Assembly: GCF_044324875.1 (NCBI RefSeq) | Contig: NZ_CP172185.1 | Length of the DNA: 64,000 nucleotides | Strand: one strand, 5' to 3' | Source of the DNA: Escherichia coli | Lineage (GTDB): Bacteria; Pseudomonadota; Gammaproteobacteria; Enterobacterales; Enterobacteriaceae | Shown: piece after piece, positions 52,308 to 57,373 of the stretch | Layout of the letters: every line of letters begins with the position of its first letter | Position numbering within the stretch: position 1 is the first letter of the stretch | Made by a program: the position numbers and the translations under genes | The notes under the pieces: model-generated | The model's database searches: none | The model's input: only the letters and a program-made list of their open reading frames with translations | Told to the model about the DNA's origin: nothing

Positions 52308-54377
52308 ATGTCTGAGAAAACTTTTCTGGTGGAAATCGGCACTGAAGAGCTGCCACCAAAAGCACTGCGCAGCCTGGCTGAGTCCTTTGCTGCGAACTTT
52401 ACTGCGGAGCTGGATAACGCTGGCCTCGCACACGGCACCGTTCAATGGTTTGCTGCTCCGCGTCGTCTGGCGCTGAAAGTAGCTAACCTGGCGGAAGCGC
52501 AACCGGATCGTGAAATCGAAAAACGCGGCCCGGCGATTGCCCAGGCGTTCGACGCTGAAGGCAAACCGAGCAAAGCGGCAGAAGGCTGGGCGCGTGGTTG
52601 CGGTATTACCGTTGACCAGGCTGAGCGTCTGACTACCGATAAAGGTGAATGGCTGCTGTATCGCGCCCACGTGAAGGGCGAAAGCACCGAAGCACTGCTG
52701 CCGAATATGGTTGCGACTTCGCTGGCGAAACTGCCGATCCCGAAACTGATGCGCTGGGGTGCAAGCGACGTGCACTTCGTGCGTCCGGTGCACACCGTGA
52801 CCCTGCTGCTGGGCGACAAAGTTATTCCGGCTACCATTCTGGGCATTCAGTCCGATCGCGTGATTCGCGGCCACCGCTTTATGGGCGAGCCGGAATTCAC
52901 TATCGACAATGCCGATCAATACCCGGAAATTCTGCGTGAGCGCGGGAAAGTCATCGCCGATTACGAAGAACGTAAGGCGAAGATTAAAGCCGATGCCGAA
53001 GAAGCGGCGCGTAAGATTGGCGGTAACGCTGACTTAAGCGAAAGCCTGTTGGAAGAAGTCGCTTCGCTGGTGGAATGGCCGGTTGTGCTGACCGCAAAAT
53101 TCGAAGAGAAATTCCTCGCGGTGCCGTCTGAAGCGCTGGTTTACACCATGAAAGGTGACCAGAAGTACTTCCCGGTGTATGCGAACGACGGCAAACTGCT
53201 GCCGAACTTTATCTTCGTTGCCAACATCGAATCGAAAGATCCGCAGCAAATTATCTCTGGTAACGAGAAAGTCGTTCGTCCACGTCTGGCGGATGCCGAG
53301 TTCTTCTTCAACACCGACCGTAAAAAACGTCTGGAAGATAACCTGCCGCGCCTGCAAACCGTGCTGTTCCAGCAACAGCTGGGTACGCTGCGTGACAAGA
53401 CTGACCGCATCCAGGCGCTGGCTGGCTGGATTGCTGAACAGATTGGTGCAGACGTTAACCACGCAACCCGTGCGGGCCTGCTGTCTAAGTGTGACCTGAT
53501 GACCAACATGGTCTTCGAGTTCACCGACACCCAGGGCGTTATGGGGATGCACTACGCGCGTCACGATGGCGAAGCGGAAGATGTGGCAGTGGCGCTGAAC
53601 GAGCAGTATCAGCCGCGCTTTGCCGGTGATGACCTGCCGTCTAACCCGATAGCCTGTGCGCTGGCGATTGCTGACAAGATGGACACCCTGGCGGGTATCT
53701 TCGGTATCGGTCAGCATCCAAAAGGCGACAAAGACCCGTTTGCGCTGCGTCGTGCCGCACTTGGCGTGCTGCGTATTATCGTTGAGAAGAACCTCAACCT
53801 TGATCTGCAAACGCTGACCGAAGAAGCAGTGCGTCTGTATGGCGATAAGCTGACTAATGCCAACGTGGTTGATGATGTTATCGACTTTATGCTTGGTCGC
53901 TTCCGCGCCTGGTATCAGGACGAAGGTTACACCGTTGACACCATCCAGGCGGTACTGGCACGTCGTCCGACTCGTCCGGCTGATTTCGATGCCCGAATGA
54001 AAGCGGTATCGCACTTCCGTACCCTGGAAGCAGCTGCAGCACTGGCGGCGGCGAACAAGCGTGTATCTAACATTCTGGCGAAGTCTGATGAAGTGCTGAG
54101 CGATCGCGTGAATGCTTCTACTCTGAAAGAGCCGGAAGAAATTAAACTGGCGATGCAGGTGGTTGTGCTGCGCGATAAACTGGAGCCGTACTTCGCCGAA
54201 GGTCGTTACCAGGACGCGCTGGTCGAACTGGCTGAATTGCGTGAACCGGTTGATGCCTTCTTCGATAAAGTGATGGTCATGGTTGATGACAAAGAATTGC
54301 GAATCAACCGTCTTACCATGCTGGAGAAACTGCGCGAATTATTCCTGCGCGTTGCGGATATTTCGCTGTTACAGTAA
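52308..54377 (+). CDS. glyS: Glycine--tRNA ligase beta subunit
   Basis: 689-aa [23 protein letters not shown]. Confidence 0.95.
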
Positions 54378-54394
54378 TAACGCCGTTATTAAAA

Positions 54395-54421
54395 AGCCTG
54401 CCATCTGGCAGGCTTTTTTAT
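54395..54421 (+). terminator. Rho-independent terminator of glyQS
   Basis: Stem agcctgcc / ggcaggct, loop atct, followed by tttttt. Confidence 0.6.
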
Positions 54422-54673
54422 CGCTAAATAATAGAGCAACCTTTAATAATCTTCTGCTGAATAAAGATTGTCTCATATATTAATTTTATGAGATTTTTTT
54501 AGGATTATATCAAGGAGAAGAAACGAACTTATTAAGCTAGAATAGCCACGGGTGCTTGAGACTGTTTGTCTCAGGTATTCACCGAAAGGCAGACAGAGAA
54601 AAGCCCCACCTGACTATAAATCAAAGTGTACTGCACCCATTTTGTTGGACGATGAAATGGAATAGCCCCTGAT

Positions 54674-55195
54674 ATGTCAAAGCCAAAATACCCTTTTGAA
54701 AAGCGCCTTGAAGTCGTGAATCACTACTTCACTACTGATGATGGTTACAGGATCATCTCGGCACGTTTTGGTGTCCCCCGAACCCAGGTCAGGACATGGG
54801 TTGCCCTCTATGAAAAACATGGAGAAAAAGGTTTAATTCCCAAACCTAAAGGTGTTAGTGCTGATCCTGAGTTGCGTATTAAGGTCGTGAAAGCTGTGAT
54901 CGAGCAGCACATGTCCCTTAATCAGGCTGCTGCTCACTTTATGCTTGCTGGTAGTGGTTCTGTAGCCAGGTGGCTGAAGGTTTATGAAGAGCGCGGAGAA
55001 GCTGGTTTACGCGCGCTCAAGATTGGCACCAAAAGAAACATTGCAATATCAGTTGATCCAGAAAAAGCGGCATCAGCATTGGAGCTGTCAAAAGACCGAC
55101 GCATTGAGGATCTTGAAAGGCAAGTTCGATTTCTTGAAACGCGGCTTGTGTATCTAAAAAAGCTGAAAGCCTTAGCTCATCCCACGAAAAAGTGA
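54674..55195 (+). CDS. insJ: IS150 transposase OrfA (HTH)
   Basis: 173-aa ORF MSKPKYPFEKRLEVVNHYF...; slippery heptamer A-AAA-AAG at 55156-55162 in frame near its 3-prime end. Confidence 0.9.
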   Translation: MSKPKYPFEKRLEVVNHYFTTDDGYRIISARFGVPRTQVRTWVALYEKHGEKGLIPKPKGVSADPELRIKVVKAVIEQHMSLNQAAAHFMLAGSGSVARWLKVYEERGEAGLRALKIGTKRNIAISVDPEKAASALELSKDRRIEDLERQVRFLETRLVYLKKLKALAHPTKK

Positions 55196-56043
55196 AAGTA
55201 CTCAACGAGCTAAGGCAGTTTTATCCTCTTGATGAGCTTCTCAGGGCTGCGGAGATACCGCGCAGTACGTTTTATTACCATCTAAAGGCTCTCAGCAAGC
55301 CTGACAAGTATGCGGACGTTAAAAAGCGTATTGGTGAGATTTATCATGAGAATAGAGGCCGATACGGATACCGTAGGGTAACGCTGTCTCTTCATCGAGA
55401 AGGGAAACAGATTAACCATAAAGCTGTTCAGCGCCTGATGGGAACCCTCTCACTTAAGGCAGCGATTAAGGTCAAGCGATACCGCTCTTACAGAGGAGAG
55501 GTAGGGCAAACCGCCCCCAATGTTCTCCAAAGAGATTTCAAGGCTACGCGGCCAAACGAGAAGTGGGTTACCGATGTTACTGAATTTGCAGTCAATGGGC
55601 GCAAGCTGTATTTGTCTCCAGTAATAGATCTCTTCAACAACGAAGTTATTTCTTACAGCCTTTCGGAAAGACCAGTGATGAACATGGTCGAGAATATGCT
55701 CGATCAGGCATTCAAAAAGCTTAATCCTCACGAGCATCCTGTTCTGCACTCTGACCAGGGATGGCAGTATCGTATGAGAAGATATCAAAATATCCTTAAA
55801 GAATATGGTATTAAACAAAGCATGTCCAGAAAAGGCAATTGTCTGGATAATGCTGTGGTGGAGTGTTTCTTTGGAACCTTAAAATCGGAGTGTTTTTATC
55901 TTGATGAGTTCAGTAATATAAGCGAACTGAAGGATGCTGTTACGGAATATATTGAATACTACAACAGCAGAAGAATTAGCCTGAAATTAAAAGGTCTGAC
56001 TCCAATTGAATATCGGAATCAGACCTATATGCCTCGTGTTTAA
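55192..56043 (+). CDS. insK: IS150 transposase OrfB (DDE integrase core), expressed by -1 frameshift fusion with OrfA
   Basis: 283-aa ORF in the -1 frame relative to insJ; DDE/rve motifs ([19 protein letters not shown]). Confidence 0.9.
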
Positions 56044-56144
56044 CTGTCCAACTTTTTGGGGTCAGTACAAAGTGAGGCCCCTCTATGCATAGACACCATA
56101 AGGTTAGCCTCTTACTCGTTGGAAATCAACACAGGAGGCTGGGA

Positions 56145-56297
56145 ATGCCGCAGAAATATAGATTACTTTCTTTAATAGTGATTTGTTTCACGCTTTTATT
56201 TTTCACCTGGATGGTAAGAGATTCACTGTGTGAATTGCATATTAAACAGGGAAGTTATGAGCTGGCGGCATTTTTAGCCTGCAATTTGAAAGAGTAA
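56145..56297 (+). CDS. hokA: Hok-family small toxic membrane peptide
   Basis: 50 aa MPQKYRLLSLIVICFTLLFFTWMVRDSLCELHIKQGSYELAAFLACNLKE after AGGAGG SD; an in-frame upstream ATG at 56085 gives a 70-codon mok-like ORF. Confidence 0.8.
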   Translation: MPQKYRLLSLIVICFTLLFFTWMVRDSLCELHIKQGSYELAAFLACNLKE

Positions 56298-56455
56298 GAG
56301 TCTTCGGCGGGAAGTTATTCCCGCCTTTCTTACGGTGTTGGGTATTCTCAATGCACCCTAATTTATTTCTTTAATGAATGTTTTTTTTAAAAATACGAAT
56401 GGATTTGGCTATTAGATAAGTTTTTAATCGGGAACAGGAATGGTTCGGAGCCTTC

Positions 56456-56827
56456 ATGAATAAACTGCTTTTACTGTTGATAATGCTCTATCAACGACAT
56501 CTTTCTCCTCGCAAAGGATACCGCTGTGCTTACAGTGTGTTGTACCAAACGCAGGGATGTTCGGGAGCAGTCAAAGAGATTATTCAACAGAAAGGTGTTA
56601 TTGCAGGCTGGGGCGAGATACGTCAGCGTTTTGCAGATTGCCGACTTGCGGCACAGACAATCAGGCAGAAGCAACACCTGAACGAGGTAATACGTAAAAA
56701 GAAGAATAATAATTGTGATTGTTCCGGGTGCGATGGTGCGGTCTGTCGTGATTGCGACATTCCGGTGCCGGATCTGGATTGTTCCTGGGACTGTTCTTCT
56801 CTACATATAAAGCGTTTTTTCCAATAA
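56456..56827 (+). CDS. YidD-like (DUF37/hemolytic domain) protein with Cys-rich C-terminal tail
   Basis: 123-aa ORF; N-terminal LYQRHLSP...C...KGVIAGWGEIRQRFADC resembles the YidD family pattern; C-terminal CDCSGCDGAVCRDCD cluster. Confidence 0.5.
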   Translation: MNKLLLLLIMLYQRHLSPRKGYRCAYSVLYQTQGCSGAVKEIIQQKGVIAGWGEIRQRFADCRLAAQTIRQKQHLNEVIRKKKNNNCDCSGCDGAVCRDCDIPVPDLDCSWDCSSLHIKRFFQ

Positions 56828-56852
56828 AAAAATCCCCGCCAAATGGCAGGGA
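56826..56852 (-). terminator. Rho-independent terminator of cspA
   Basis: On the minus strand: stem tccctgcc / ggcgggga followed by ttttttt, about 30 nt after the cspA stop. Confidence 0.55.
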
Positions 56853-56880
56853 TCTTAGATTCTGTGCTTTTAAGCAGAGA

Positions 56881-57093
56881 TTACAGGCTGGTTACGTTAC
56901 CAGCTGCCGGGCCTTTAGCGCCGCTTTCGATGGTGAAGGACACTTTCTGACCTTCGTCCAGAGATTTGTAACCATCGTTCTGGATAGCAGAGAAGTGTAC
57001 GAACACGTCTTTAGAGCCATCGTCAGGAGTGATGAAGCCGAAGCCTTTGTCAGCGTTGAACCATTTTACGATACCAGTCATTTTACCGGACAT
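56881..57093 (-). CDS. cspA: Major cold-shock protein CspA
   Basis: 70 aa [38 protein letters not shown] with RNP1/RNP2 motifs. Confidence 0.95.
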
Positions 57094-57373
57094 AGTGTAT
57101 TACCTTTAATAATTAAGTGTGCCTTTCGGCGATATGGCGTGCTTTACAGATTTTGAAGCGTTAAAGGAATGTGCACTACGAGGGGTATCAACGATAACTC
57201 TTGAAGGGACTTGCCTTACTACACTGCTTTAATGGTCTGTACGTCAAACCGTTGATGTGCATTAAGCCACGCATTGGCGGGTGATGCAACAATTATTTTT
57301 CATATTTATGATTAATCGGTTGGAAAACGGTCCTGTCATCAGGACCGTAAACAGCAATAAAGTGGATAAAAGT

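What the first reader, a model, noticed from the sequence alone, without database searches (positions are those of the whole stretch)
56085..56297. hokA with an in-frame 20-codon upstream extension (mok-like)
An ATG at 56085 opens a 70-codon frame that is in the same frame as the 50-codon Hok peptide, which has its own AGGAGG Shine-Dalgarno. Whether the 70-codon frame corresponds to the mok reading frame, and whether a Sok antisense RNA is still encoded, cannot be decided by eye. The toxin sequence itself is intact.
Basis: inference. Interest (0 to 1): 0.35.

Follow-up and report, generated by a model that had tools for sequence, protein, structure and literature searches.

The report
hokA/mokA toxin locus split by IS150
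The 70-codon frame is the known mokA leader frame of the chromosomal hokA toxin gene, but an IS150 element 15 bases upstream separates it from its promoter and regulatory RNA elements and cuts the SokA antitoxin gene in two, an arrangement found in about one in six sequenced E. coli genomes.

Summary
ATG 56085 opens a 70-codon frame in phase with the 50-codon HokA ORF (56145-56297; AGGAGG at 56133-38). HokA is intact (NCBIfam HokA equivalog, 131 bits).

The ATG and its GAGG Shine-Dalgarno align with the experimentally defined mok start of plasmid R1. They are conserved in 15 of 15 hokA-clade species, so this is mokA.

The frame relation is incidental:
- R1 mok lies 58 nt upstream, in the -1 frame.
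- hokC/mokC (57 nt) and hokA (60 nt) are in frame.
- Some natural hokA alleles (59 nt) are not.
- The 20-codon extension shows no third-position excess of variable sites.

A complete IS150 (54627-56069, AAG duplication) sits in the loop of the hairpin that is both the mok-SD/anti-SD stem of the hokA mRNA and the SokA terminator.
- The hokA promoter, the tac element and the anti-SD are now 1.4 kb away.
- sokA keeps its promoter and about 22 nt of its 5' end, but has lost its terminator arm.

Removing IS150 restores a canonical hok/mok/sok locus. The allele occurs in 923 of 5426 complete E. coli genomes, and K-12 carries a related IS150 disruption. This is already known biology and of low interest.

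The parts
54550..54626 (+). First 77 nt of the hokA mRNA, now displaced: the tac element GGGTGCTTGA (54550-59), the 5' hairpin, and the anti-SD/ucb GCCCCAC (54603-09).
   Evidence: Rfam RF01794 matches from model position 1 at 54550. The stretch is colinear with intact loci. In the fold of the restored mRNA, tac pairs with fbi and ucb pairs with SDmok.
54593..54626 (-). 3' part of sokA: the loop, the 3' arm of the terminator hairpin (GUGGGGC) and the U-tail (CUUUUCUCUGU). It is cut off from its promoter.
   Evidence: It is equivalent to the K-12 sokA pseudogene remnant b4614. The restored SokA folds at -24.7 kcal/mol, z = -5.0.
54624..54626 (.). Left copy of the AAG target-site duplication.
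   Evidence: Intact loci carry a single AAG.
54627..56069 (+). Complete IS150, 1443 bp (insJ 54674-55195, insK 55192-56043, terminal inverted repeats TGTACTG...). It has the same orientation as hokA.
   Evidence: It differs from the K-12 IS150 at 14 of 1443 positions. RefSeq annotates it as an IS150 transposase in the matching genomes.
55992..56026 (-). 15-bp hairpin inside the IS150 right end, followed by TTTTAATTT on the minus strand. It could terminate a transcript that starts at the sokA promoter.
   Evidence: Terminator-like site. It is present in the folds of the chimeric RNA. Any function is inferred only.
56070..56072 (.). Right copy of the AAG target-site duplication.
56072..56078 (+). 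mokA Shine-Dalgarno region GTGAGGC (GAGG 56074-77, 7-nt spacer to the ATG).
   Evidence: It aligns with the R1 sequence CACGAGGC upstream of mok. It is conserved across genera.
56073..56094 (-). 5' part of sokA (about 22 nt), antisense to the mokA SD and start codon. The predicted +1 lies opposite mokA nt 9-10 (56093/56094).
   Evidence: By homology to the annotated SokC, whose +1 lies opposite nt 9 of mokC, and to a 64-nt Sok placed on R100. PMC3562002 gives a 52-bp hokA target.
56101..56129 (-). Predicted sokA promoter: -35 TTGATT (reverse complement of 56124-29), 17-nt spacer, -10 TAACCT (reverse complement of 56101-06).
   Evidence: It aligns with the corresponding R1 stretch, which I read as TTGCGC-17-TATCCT, around the invariant GCCTCTTAC block. 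It is too weak for the consensus scan, so it is an inference.
56085..56297 (+). mokA reading frame, 70 codons, in frame with hokA and sharing its stop codon.
56133..56138 (+). hokA Shine-Dalgarno AGGAGG.
   Evidence: It is paired with 56278-82 in all predicted folds.
56145..56297 (+). hokA toxin ORF, 50 codons, intact.
   Evidence: RefSeq annotates hokA at the homologous place.
56306..56325 (+). GC-rich 3' stem-loop GGCGGGAAGTTATTCCCGCC of the hokA mRNA.
56348..56358 (+). fbi element TCAATGCACCC, complementary to tac.
   Evidence: In the restored mRNA fold, nt 1-11 pair with nt 352-363.

Best explanation
This is the chromosomal hokA/mokA/sokA type I toxin-antitoxin locus between glyS and cspA, carrying a simple IS150 insertion in its leader.

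The 70-codon frame is mokA. In this family mok is the leader frame whose translation, started at its own Shine-Dalgarno, opens the structured hok start site and allows Hok synthesis. Its start region is also the target of the Sok antisense RNA.

In the hokA clade mok happens to lie 60 nt upstream of hok, so it is in frame. That appears to be a by-product of a leader with few indels, constrained at the RNA and promoter level. It is not selection for a 70-aa protein.

IS150 inserted with an AAG duplication into the loop of one hairpin. On the sense strand this hairpin sequesters the mok SD with the anti-SD (ucb). On the antisense strand it is the SokA terminator. Three consequences follow.
1. 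Shown from sequence: the hokA promoter, tac and ucb are now 1446 bp upstream of mokA-hokA.
2. Shown from sequence: sokA keeps its promoter and about 22 nt of 5' target-recognition sequence, but has lost its terminator 3' arm and U-tail.
3. Inferred: mokA-hokA can be transcribed only by read-through from the hokA promoter or IS150. Any Sok-like RNA would be a SokA::IS150 chimera. The locus therefore no longer works as a regulated toxin-antitoxin module, as proposed for the IS-disrupted hok loci of K-12.
For: Observation:
- The ORF, SD and toxin are confirmed.

IS150 and the restored locus:
- IS150 boundaries and the AAG duplication are clear.
- Excising 54627-56072 gives a 76-nt junction 100% identical to uninterrupted loci such as FDAARGOS_536, and colinear with O157:H7.
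- Rfam RF01794 (the hok leader) scores 120 bits full length on an intact locus. In the window it is split into 86-bit and 37-bit pieces on either side of IS150.
- The minimum-energy fold of the restored mRNA shows tac(1-11)/fbi(352-363) and SDmok(77-83)/ucb(54-60).
- The restored SokA folds as a 5' tail plus a long terminator hairpin, like SokC and R1 Sok (z = -5.0).

Identity of the ATG as the mok start:
- On R100, mok ATG is at +116 and hok ATG at +174, which reproduces the numbering of PMC9841398.
- The window ATG and its SD fall in the same alignment columns.
- K-12 annotates the mokA pseudogene with the same stop as hokA, places the sokA remnant on the far side of its IS150, and draws mokC in frame with hokC.

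Frame is not under protein-level selection:
- mok-to-hok offsets are 60 (window, O157), 59 (S65EC, 20409, Phytobacter), 58 (R1), 57 (hokC, an IncFII variant) and 55-61 in Edaphovirga, Rahnella and Rouxiella.
- Variable sites by codon position are 5/10/8 in the extension and 20/20/39 in hok. pN/pS is 0.56 against 0.26.
- In R1, translation of mok up to the hok SD is what matters, not its product (PMC9841398).

Population frequencies in 5426 complete E. coli genomes:
- 923 carry this junction, 2792 have an intact leader and 1574 carry the K-12-type junction.
Against: No expression data exist for this allele.
- The sokA promoter is too weak for the consensus scanner. It rests on alignment to R1 and hokC only.
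- A transcript from the hokA promoter could in principle read through IS150 and still carry every element, with long-range pairing across 1.4 kb.
- The 60-nt in-frame spacing is kept in 14 of 15 hokA-clade species. This could instead reflect selection on a Mok-Hok fusion.
- Only 19 codons and 12 sequences went into the codon-position test.
- Even intact chromosomal hokA loci were reported not to mediate post-segregational killing (bioRxiv 10.1101/2025.08.07.668861). 'Inactivation' may therefore change little phenotypically.
Confidence: 0.88

Rival explanations
1. The 70-codon ORF encodes a real N-terminally extended toxin, a Mok-Hok fusion of 70 aa. This proteoform is the selected product, and the in-frame arrangement is functional rather than incidental.
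For: The frame is open and the 60-nt offset is kept in 14 of 15 hokA-clade species from at least five genera. hokC/mokC and an IncFII plasmid variant are also in frame. A basic N-terminal extension on a short hydrophobic toxin would probably be tolerated; that is my own inference, not a result.
Against: The extension shows no third-position excess of variable sites (5/10/8) and has a higher pN/pS than hok. Natural alleles with 59-nt offsets keep an intact hokA (S65EC, 20409, Phytobacter). R1 mok is out of frame, and its product and its translation beyond the hok start are dispensable. The same nucleotides carry the sokA promoter, the Sok target and leader structure, which is enough to explain the lack of indels.
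Confidence: 0.08
2. The locus in the window is still a working toxin-antitoxin pair. The sokA promoter drives a chimeric SokA::IS150 RNA that ends at the IS150 hairpin (55992-56026), and this RNA still represses mokA-hokA transcripts that read out of IS150.
For: The predicted sokA promoter and the 22-nt 5' region antisense to the mokA SD and ATG are unchanged. A 15-bp hairpin followed by a T-run lies about 70 nt downstream on the minus strand. No plus-strand terminator was found at the IS150 right end, so read-through into mokA is plausible. The allele persists in 17% of genomes with an intact hokA ORF.
Against: This is entirely predictive. The Sok stem-loop that gives the RNA its structure is lost. 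In the predicted read-through transcript, SDmok is paired with IS150 GCCUCG (56031-36), with an unpaired probability of 0.01. The toxin may therefore simply be silent without any antisense. At least one carrier of this allele has a frameshifted hokA (wlxctx60), which fits neutral decay.
Confidence: 0.1
3. The upstream ATG is a chance in-frame start with no role. HokA is translated only from its own AGGAGG.
For: A 20-codon stop-free extension is expected by chance about 38% of the time (my own arithmetic). hokA has a strong SD of its own.
Against: The ATG and its GAGG are conserved in every hokA-clade species examined, and they align with the mutationally validated R1 mok start. The hokA SD and ATG are base-paired in every predicted fold (hok ATG unpaired probability 0.00). 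That is the situation which translational coupling to mok resolves in R1.
Confidence: 0.03

Closest known systems
E. coli K-12 hokA (b4455) / mokA pseudogene (b4647) / sokA pseudogene (b4614) with IS150 (Pedersen & Gerdes 1999, Mol Microbiol 32:1090; content cited from my own knowledge, reference listed in PMC3562002)
   Same: Same chromosomal site (glyS...hokA...cspA). Same toxin, with 3 amino-acid differences. Same IS element inserted in the leader, close to but not in hokA. mokA is drawn in frame with hokA. sokA is left as a remnant on the far side of IS150.
   Different: In K-12 and BL21, IS150 is in the opposite orientation and 39 bp of leader are missing, including the mok SD, the mok ATG and the sokA 5' end with its -10. 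The window allele is a clean insertion with an AAG duplication. It keeps the complete mokA frame, its SD and the predicted sokA promoter.
hok/mok/sok (parB) of plasmids R1/R100
   Same: A Hok-family toxin. A mok start with a GAGG SD at the homologous position. The Sok 5' end lies opposite mok codon 3. It has the invariant GCCTCTTAC block, tac/fbi end pairing and an SDmok/anti-SD hairpin.
   Different: R1 mok starts 58 nt upstream of hok and so is in the -1 frame, ending at its own TAA (70 aa). Here the offset is 60 nt, the frame is shared and the stop codon is shared. The R1 locus is uninterrupted and mediates post-segregational killing.
hokC (gef)/mokC/sokC of E. coli K-12
   Same: A chromosomal hok homologue whose annotated mok is an in-frame N-terminal extension (69 against 50 aa). 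The annotated SokC starts opposite nt 9 of mokC.
   Different: The offset is 57 nt rather than 60. That locus is disrupted by IS186 downstream of hokC (at the fbi side), not by IS150 in the leader.
Intact hokA/sokA loci (E. coli C in Pedersen & Gerdes 1999; here O157:H7, FDAARGOS_536, NCTC9064)
   Same: The sequence is colinear and up to 100% identical to the window over the junction once IS150 and one AAG are removed.
   Different: No IS150. The leader, the sokA gene and the Rfam leader model are all contiguous.

Membership tests
[quoted passage not shown] | Small (about 50 aa) hydrophobic toxin matching the Hok/Gef profile. | tested here: met
   Pfam PF01848, 81.9 bits (cutoff 22). NCBIfam HokA equivalog NF007290, 131.5 bits (cutoff 89).
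[quoted passage not shown] | Overlapping upstream mok reading frame with its own Shine-Dalgarno, starting at the position targeted by Sok. | tested here: met
   ATG 56085 and GAGG 56074-77 align to the R1 mok ATG (+116) and its SD. They are conserved in 15 of 15 hokA-clade species. K-12 annotates mokA in this frame.
[quoted passage not shown] | mok in a different frame from hok, as in the R1 prototype. | tested here: not met
   The offset is 60 nt here against 58 nt in R1/R100. The feature is not general: mokC is in frame and offsets of 55-61 nt occur in relatives. It is therefore not a true defining feature.
[quoted passage not shown] | Contiguous cis-antisense sok gene: a promoter inside the 5' end of mok, a 5' single-stranded tail, and a terminator hairpin with a U-tail. 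| tested here: not met
   The predicted promoter and 22 nt lie at 56073-56129 (-). The terminator 3' arm and U-tail lie at 54593-54626 (-). The two parts are separated by IS150. The restored sequence does fold as a Sok-like RNA.
[quoted passage not shown] | hok mRNA architecture: 5' tac paired to 3' fbi, and the mok SD sequestered by an upstream anti-SD (ucb). | tested here: not met
   All elements are present and pair in the fold of the IS150-excised sequence. In the window, tac and ucb (54550-54609) are 1.4 kb from SDmok. The Rfam leader model is split into 86-bit and 37-bit pieces, against 120 bits on an intact locus.
[quoted passage not shown] | Toxicity of Hok, repression by Sok, and killing after Sok decay. 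| not testable with these tools
   Literature only. K-12 HokA is toxic on overexpression, and intact chromosomal hokA did not mediate post-segregational killing (bioRxiv 10.1101/2025.08.07.668861).
IS150 (IS3 family insertion sequence) | 1443-bp element with terminal inverted repeats, two overlapping transposase ORFs (insJ/insK, programmed frameshift) and a short target duplication. | tested here: met
   54627-56069 is 1443 bp, with ends TGTACTG.../...CAGTACA. ORFs of 173 and 283 aa overlap at 55192-95. It differs from the K-12 IS150 at 14 positions. It is flanked by AAG/AAG.

The most novel reading that the evidence does not exclude
The strictly kept 60-nt in-frame spacing across Escherichia, Pseudocitrobacter, Kluyvera, Klebsiella and Citrobacter hokA loci could mean that ribosomes starting at mokA make a 70-aa extended HokA that is itself a functional or alternative toxin proteoform. 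In the IS150 allele, a SokA::IS150 chimeric antisense RNA, ended by the hairpin in the IS150 right end, could still hold it in check. An insertion element would then have rewired the toxin-antitoxin pair rather than killed it.
Probability: 0.08. Interest if true: 0.4.

Novelty: already known. Interest (0 to 1): 0.13.

Why it matters
It matters little beyond correct annotation.
- The locus should be labelled hokA plus mokA, with sokA and the hokA leader interrupted by IS150. It should not be labelled an intact toxin-antitoxin system.
- Two points are mildly useful. First, whether mok is in frame with hok is not a family character, so frame cannot be used to accept or reject a mok call.
- Second, the loop of the SDmok/SokA-terminator hairpin of hokA holds IS150 in about 46% of complete E. 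coli genomes. This involves at least three junction types, which suggests an insertion hot spot or repeated selection for disruption.

Tried and rejected
- Pedersen & Gerdes 1999, the primary description of hokA/IS150, is not held. The supplements of PMC9841398 and PMC3562002 are not held either. Statements about the 1999 paper therefore rest on my own knowledge and on secondary citations.
- An exact-pattern scan of GTDB species representatives for the window-type IS150/hokA junction found nothing. The allele is seen only within E. coli RefSeq genomes.
- The consensus promoter scan found neither the sokA nor the hokA promoter. Both are below its 9-of-12 threshold, so the promoter calls rest on alignment.
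- I first assumed from an IncFII plasmid variant (L006) that R1 mok is in frame with hok. Checking the numbering of PMC9841398 against R100 showed that the true R1 mok is in the -1 frame and that L006 has a 1-nt shorter spacer.
- My remembered K-12 coordinates for hokB were wrong (which hit gapC). hokB/mokB was not analysed.
- I tried to derive the K-12-type allele from the reverse-orientation allele of strain 20409. The far end of that IS150 is cut by IS1, and the K-12 left junction (CAAAGTT|IS) fits no simple duplication, so the history is unresolved.
- The source organism could not be identified. The best glyS identity to any of 5425 E. coli genomes is 98.1%.

Full report
**1. Observation**

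The sequence is as described. The ORF listing gives a 70-aa ATG-initiated ORF at 56085..56297. Its last 50 codons, from ATG 56145, are HokA, preceded by AGGAGG at 56133-38.

The 50-aa peptide matches Pfam HOK_GEF (81.9 bits) and the NCBIfam HokA equivalog (131.5 bits against a cutoff of 89). RefSeq annotates hokA at the homologous place in 5420 of 5426 complete E. coli genomes.

A stop-free 20-codon extension is not unlikely by chance (about 0.38). Its reality has to come from comparison with other sequences.

**2. What surrounds it**

The neighbourhood is glyS, then IS150, then hokA, then a small yidD-like ORF, then cspA on the minus strand.

A complete IS150 occupies 54627-56069. It is 1443 bp with TGTACTG.../...CAGTACA ends, carries insJ and insK, and has the same orientation as hokA. 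It is flanked by AAG at 54624-26 and 56070-72. Its last base is 15 nt upstream of ATG 56085.

Removing IS150 and one AAG gives a sequence colinear with the uninterrupted O157:H7 locus. The resulting 76-nt junction is 100% identical to loci such as FDAARGOS_536.

The Rfam model RF01794 is called 'sok', but it is modelled on the sense strand from the hok mRNA +1 to the hok AUG.
- It matches an intact locus full length at 120 bits, and R100 at 89 bits.
- In the window it falls into two pieces: 54550-54703 (86 bits, real only up to the IS150 junction) and 55992-56147 (37 bits, below the gathering score).

**3. Is the 70-codon frame mok?**

On R100, whose sequence over the stretch compared is the R1-type one, I set +1 at GGCGCTTGAGG. 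That places ATG codons at +116 and +174. These are the mok and hok start positions hit by loss-of-function substitutions in PMC9841398.
- R1 mok is 70 codons.
- It starts 58 nt before hok and is therefore in the -1 frame.
- It ends at its own TAA, 4 nt before the hok stop.

In a MAFFT alignment of leaders, the window's GTGAGGCCCCTCTATG falls on R100's CACGAGGCATCCCTATG, with the two ATGs in the same columns. ATG 56085 is therefore the positional homologue of the R1 mok start, with a GAGG SD 7 nt upstream.

The curated K-12 record supports this. The mokA pseudogene (b4647) shares the hokA stop, mokC shares the hokC stop (a 57-nt offset), and SokC starts opposite nt 9 of mokC.

**4. Does the frame matter?**

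mok-to-hok offsets found:

| Locus | Offset (nt) | In frame with hok? |
|---|---|---|
| Window, O157, 2013C-4187, NCTC9064 | 60 | yes |
| E. coli S65EC and 20409 (GGGAATG changed to GGGATG) | 59 | no |
| R1/R100 | 58 | no |
| hokC; an IncFII hok variant | 57 | yes |

A scan of GTDB species representatives with HokA returned 42 loci.
- In the hokA clade (Escherichia, Pseudocitrobacter, Kluyvera, Klebsiella oxytoca and michiganensis, Citrobacter sedlakii, Phytobacter and two MAGs), the ATG is present in 15 of 15 loci that have upstream sequence.
- The offset is 60 nt in 14 of them and 59 nt in Phytobacter.
- In Edaphovirga, Rahnella and Rouxiella it is 55, 56 and 61 nt.
- Several Rahnella loci have ATA, ACG or CTG at that column, and the Enterobacter clade has no ATG there.

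Among 12 in-frame sequences, variable sites by codon position are 5/10/8 in the extension and 20/20/39 in hok. Pooled pN/pS is 0.56 against 0.26.

The extension therefore does not evolve like a protein-coding segment. These same nucleotides also carry the predicted sokA promoter, the Sok target and leader structure, which is enough to explain the scarcity of indels. This agrees with the R1 result that translation of mok up to the hok SD matters, and neither the Mok product nor translation beyond the hok start does (PMC9841398).

**5. Is Sok still encoded?**

On the minus strand, the stretch that aligns with R1's TTGCGC-17-TATCCT reads TTGATT (reverse complement of 56124-29), a 17-nt spacer, then TAACCT (reverse complement of 56101-06).

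By analogy with the annotated SokC and a 64-nt R1 Sok, the +1 lies at 56093/94.

The restored SokA runs 56094 down to 56073, then 54626 down to 54593. It folds into a 5' tail plus a long hairpin followed by CUUUUCUCUGU (-24.7 kcal/mol, z = -5.0), like SokC and R1 Sok. Its 3' 34 nt coincide with the K-12 sokA remnant b4614.

IS150 sits in the loop of this hairpin. In the window, the promoter and about 22 nt (antisense to the mokA SD and ATG) lie to the right of IS150. The 3' arm and U-tail lie to its left. A normal SokA cannot be made.

A transcript from the sokA promoter would enter the IS150 right end. About 70 nt in, it would meet a 15-bp hairpin followed by UUUUAAUUU (55992-56026, minus strand). 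A chimeric RNA of roughly 105 nt is conceivable but untested.

**6. Consequences for the hokA mRNA**

The minimum-energy fold of the restored 367-nt mRNA shows the family's two hallmark features: tac (1-11) paired to fbi (352-363), and SDmok (77-83) paired to the anti-SD/ucb (54-60).

The insertion point (+77/+78) is the loop side of the SDmok stem. The hokA promoter, tac and ucb (54550-54609) are now 1446 bp from mokA.

No plus-strand terminator-like site was found at the IS150 right end, so read-through into mokA-hokA is possible. In a fold of such a transcript:
- SDmok pairs with IS150 GCCUCG (56031-36), with an unpaired probability of 0.01.
- The hokA ATG remains paired.

This is a thermodynamic prediction only. 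My reading is that the locus is no longer a regulated toxin-antitoxin module, although both reading frames are intact. That is the interpretation given for the IS-disrupted hok loci of K-12 (Pedersen & Gerdes 1999, cited from my own knowledge; context).

**7. How common, and how new?**

Counts from 76-nt junction queries against 5426 complete E. coli genomes:

| Junction type | Genomes |
|---|---|
| Uninterrupted leader | 2792 |
| K-12/BL21 type | 1574 |
| Window type | 923 |

- The K-12 type has IS150 in the opposite orientation. It lacks 39 bp, including SDmok, the mok ATG and the sokA 5' end.
- The window-type junction occurs on at least three leader haplotypes, and in one of them with a different duplication (AAGTG in DJH_183sputum).
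- Strain 20409 has IS150 reversed at the same AAG.
- This points to an insertion hot spot, or to recombination spreading the element.

The window's IS150 differs from the K-12 copy at 14 of 1443 positions. Its glyS is at most 98.1% identical to any E. coli in the collection, so the source is a somewhat divergent Escherichia coli lineage.

**8. Verdict**

The in-frame relation is real, typical of the hokA clade and of hokC, different from R1, and most likely incidental.

The more important fact is the IS150 insertion. It splits sokA and the hokA leader, and it is a frequent allele already present in public genomes and related to the classical K-12 case.

Novelty: already known. Interest: low.

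Noticed in passing
window 54624-56072; loci L003, L013, L059, L001: The loop of the SDmok/SokA-terminator hairpin of hokA holds IS150 in about 46% of complete E. coli genomes (923 window-type plus 1574 K-12-type of 5426). There are at least four junction variants: a + orientation AAG duplication, a + orientation AAGTG duplication, a reverse orientation at the same AAG, and a reverse orientation with a 39-bp deletion. This suggests an IS150 hot spot or recurrent selection.
   Followed up: partly
window 56456-56827 (+): A 123-aa ORF lies between hokA and cspA. It has a weak YidD-like N-terminus (Pfam PF01809, 26.4 bits, just under the cutoff of 27) and a Cys-rich C-terminus. It is present in only 112 of 5426 E. 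coli genomes, where RefSeq calls it yidD. It is also present in a divergent Escherichia species representative (L016), so it may be ancestral and lost from most E. coli.
   Followed up: partly
window 56274-56351 (-): This is the homologue of the K-12 small protein YsaE (b4793), antisense to the hokA 3' end. It lacks the ATG start here (K-12 MRNAVSKAG..., window (L)RIPNTVRKAG... with only a TTG upstream). ysaE is therefore probably not conserved as a gene.
   Followed up: partly
window 55992-56026 (-), inside the IS150 right end: A 15-bp perfect-stem hairpin followed by TTTTAATTT, on the strand antisense to insK. It looks like an intrinsic terminator that would stop transcription entering IS150 from the right flank.
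   Followed up: no
window 56031-56036 with 56073-56078: IS150's GCCTCG, at the insK stop region, is complementary to the mokA SD region. It replaces the displaced anti-SD in the predicted fold of a read-through transcript. This is probably coincidence.
   Followed up: no
Rfam RF01794 hits: window 54550-54703 and 55992-56147; L012 410-561: The Rfam family named 'sok antitoxin' matches the sense strand, from the hok mRNA 5' end to the hok AUG. It therefore models the hok leader rather than the antisense Sok RNA, and its strand and name can mislead annotation.
   Followed up: partly
loci L013 and L014 (E. coli 20409, S65EC): These are natural hokA alleles with a 1-nt deletion between the hokA SD and ATG (GGGAATG to GGGATG). 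The deletion puts mokA out of frame, so it would stop after 30 codons, while hokA stays intact.
   Followed up: partly
window 56826-57253 (-): A full-length cspA thermoregulator with its gene (Rfam RF01766, 501 bits). PGAP labels the identical protein 'cspE' in other RefSeq genomes, whereas K-12 calls it cspA. This is a naming inconsistency.
   Followed up: no
window 52400-54400 (glyS): The best identity to any of 5425 complete E. coli genomes is only 98.1%, and the window's IS150 differs by about 1% from the standard copy. The window comes from a lineage not closely represented in the collection.
   Followed up: partly
locus L006 (IncFII plasmid pMTY1886) 544-759: An R1-like hok locus with an identical Hok protein. 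Its leader has a 57-nt mok-to-hok spacing, so mok is in frame there, unlike in R1/R100. PGAP annotates a truncated Hok (658-759) in that record.
   Followed up: partly
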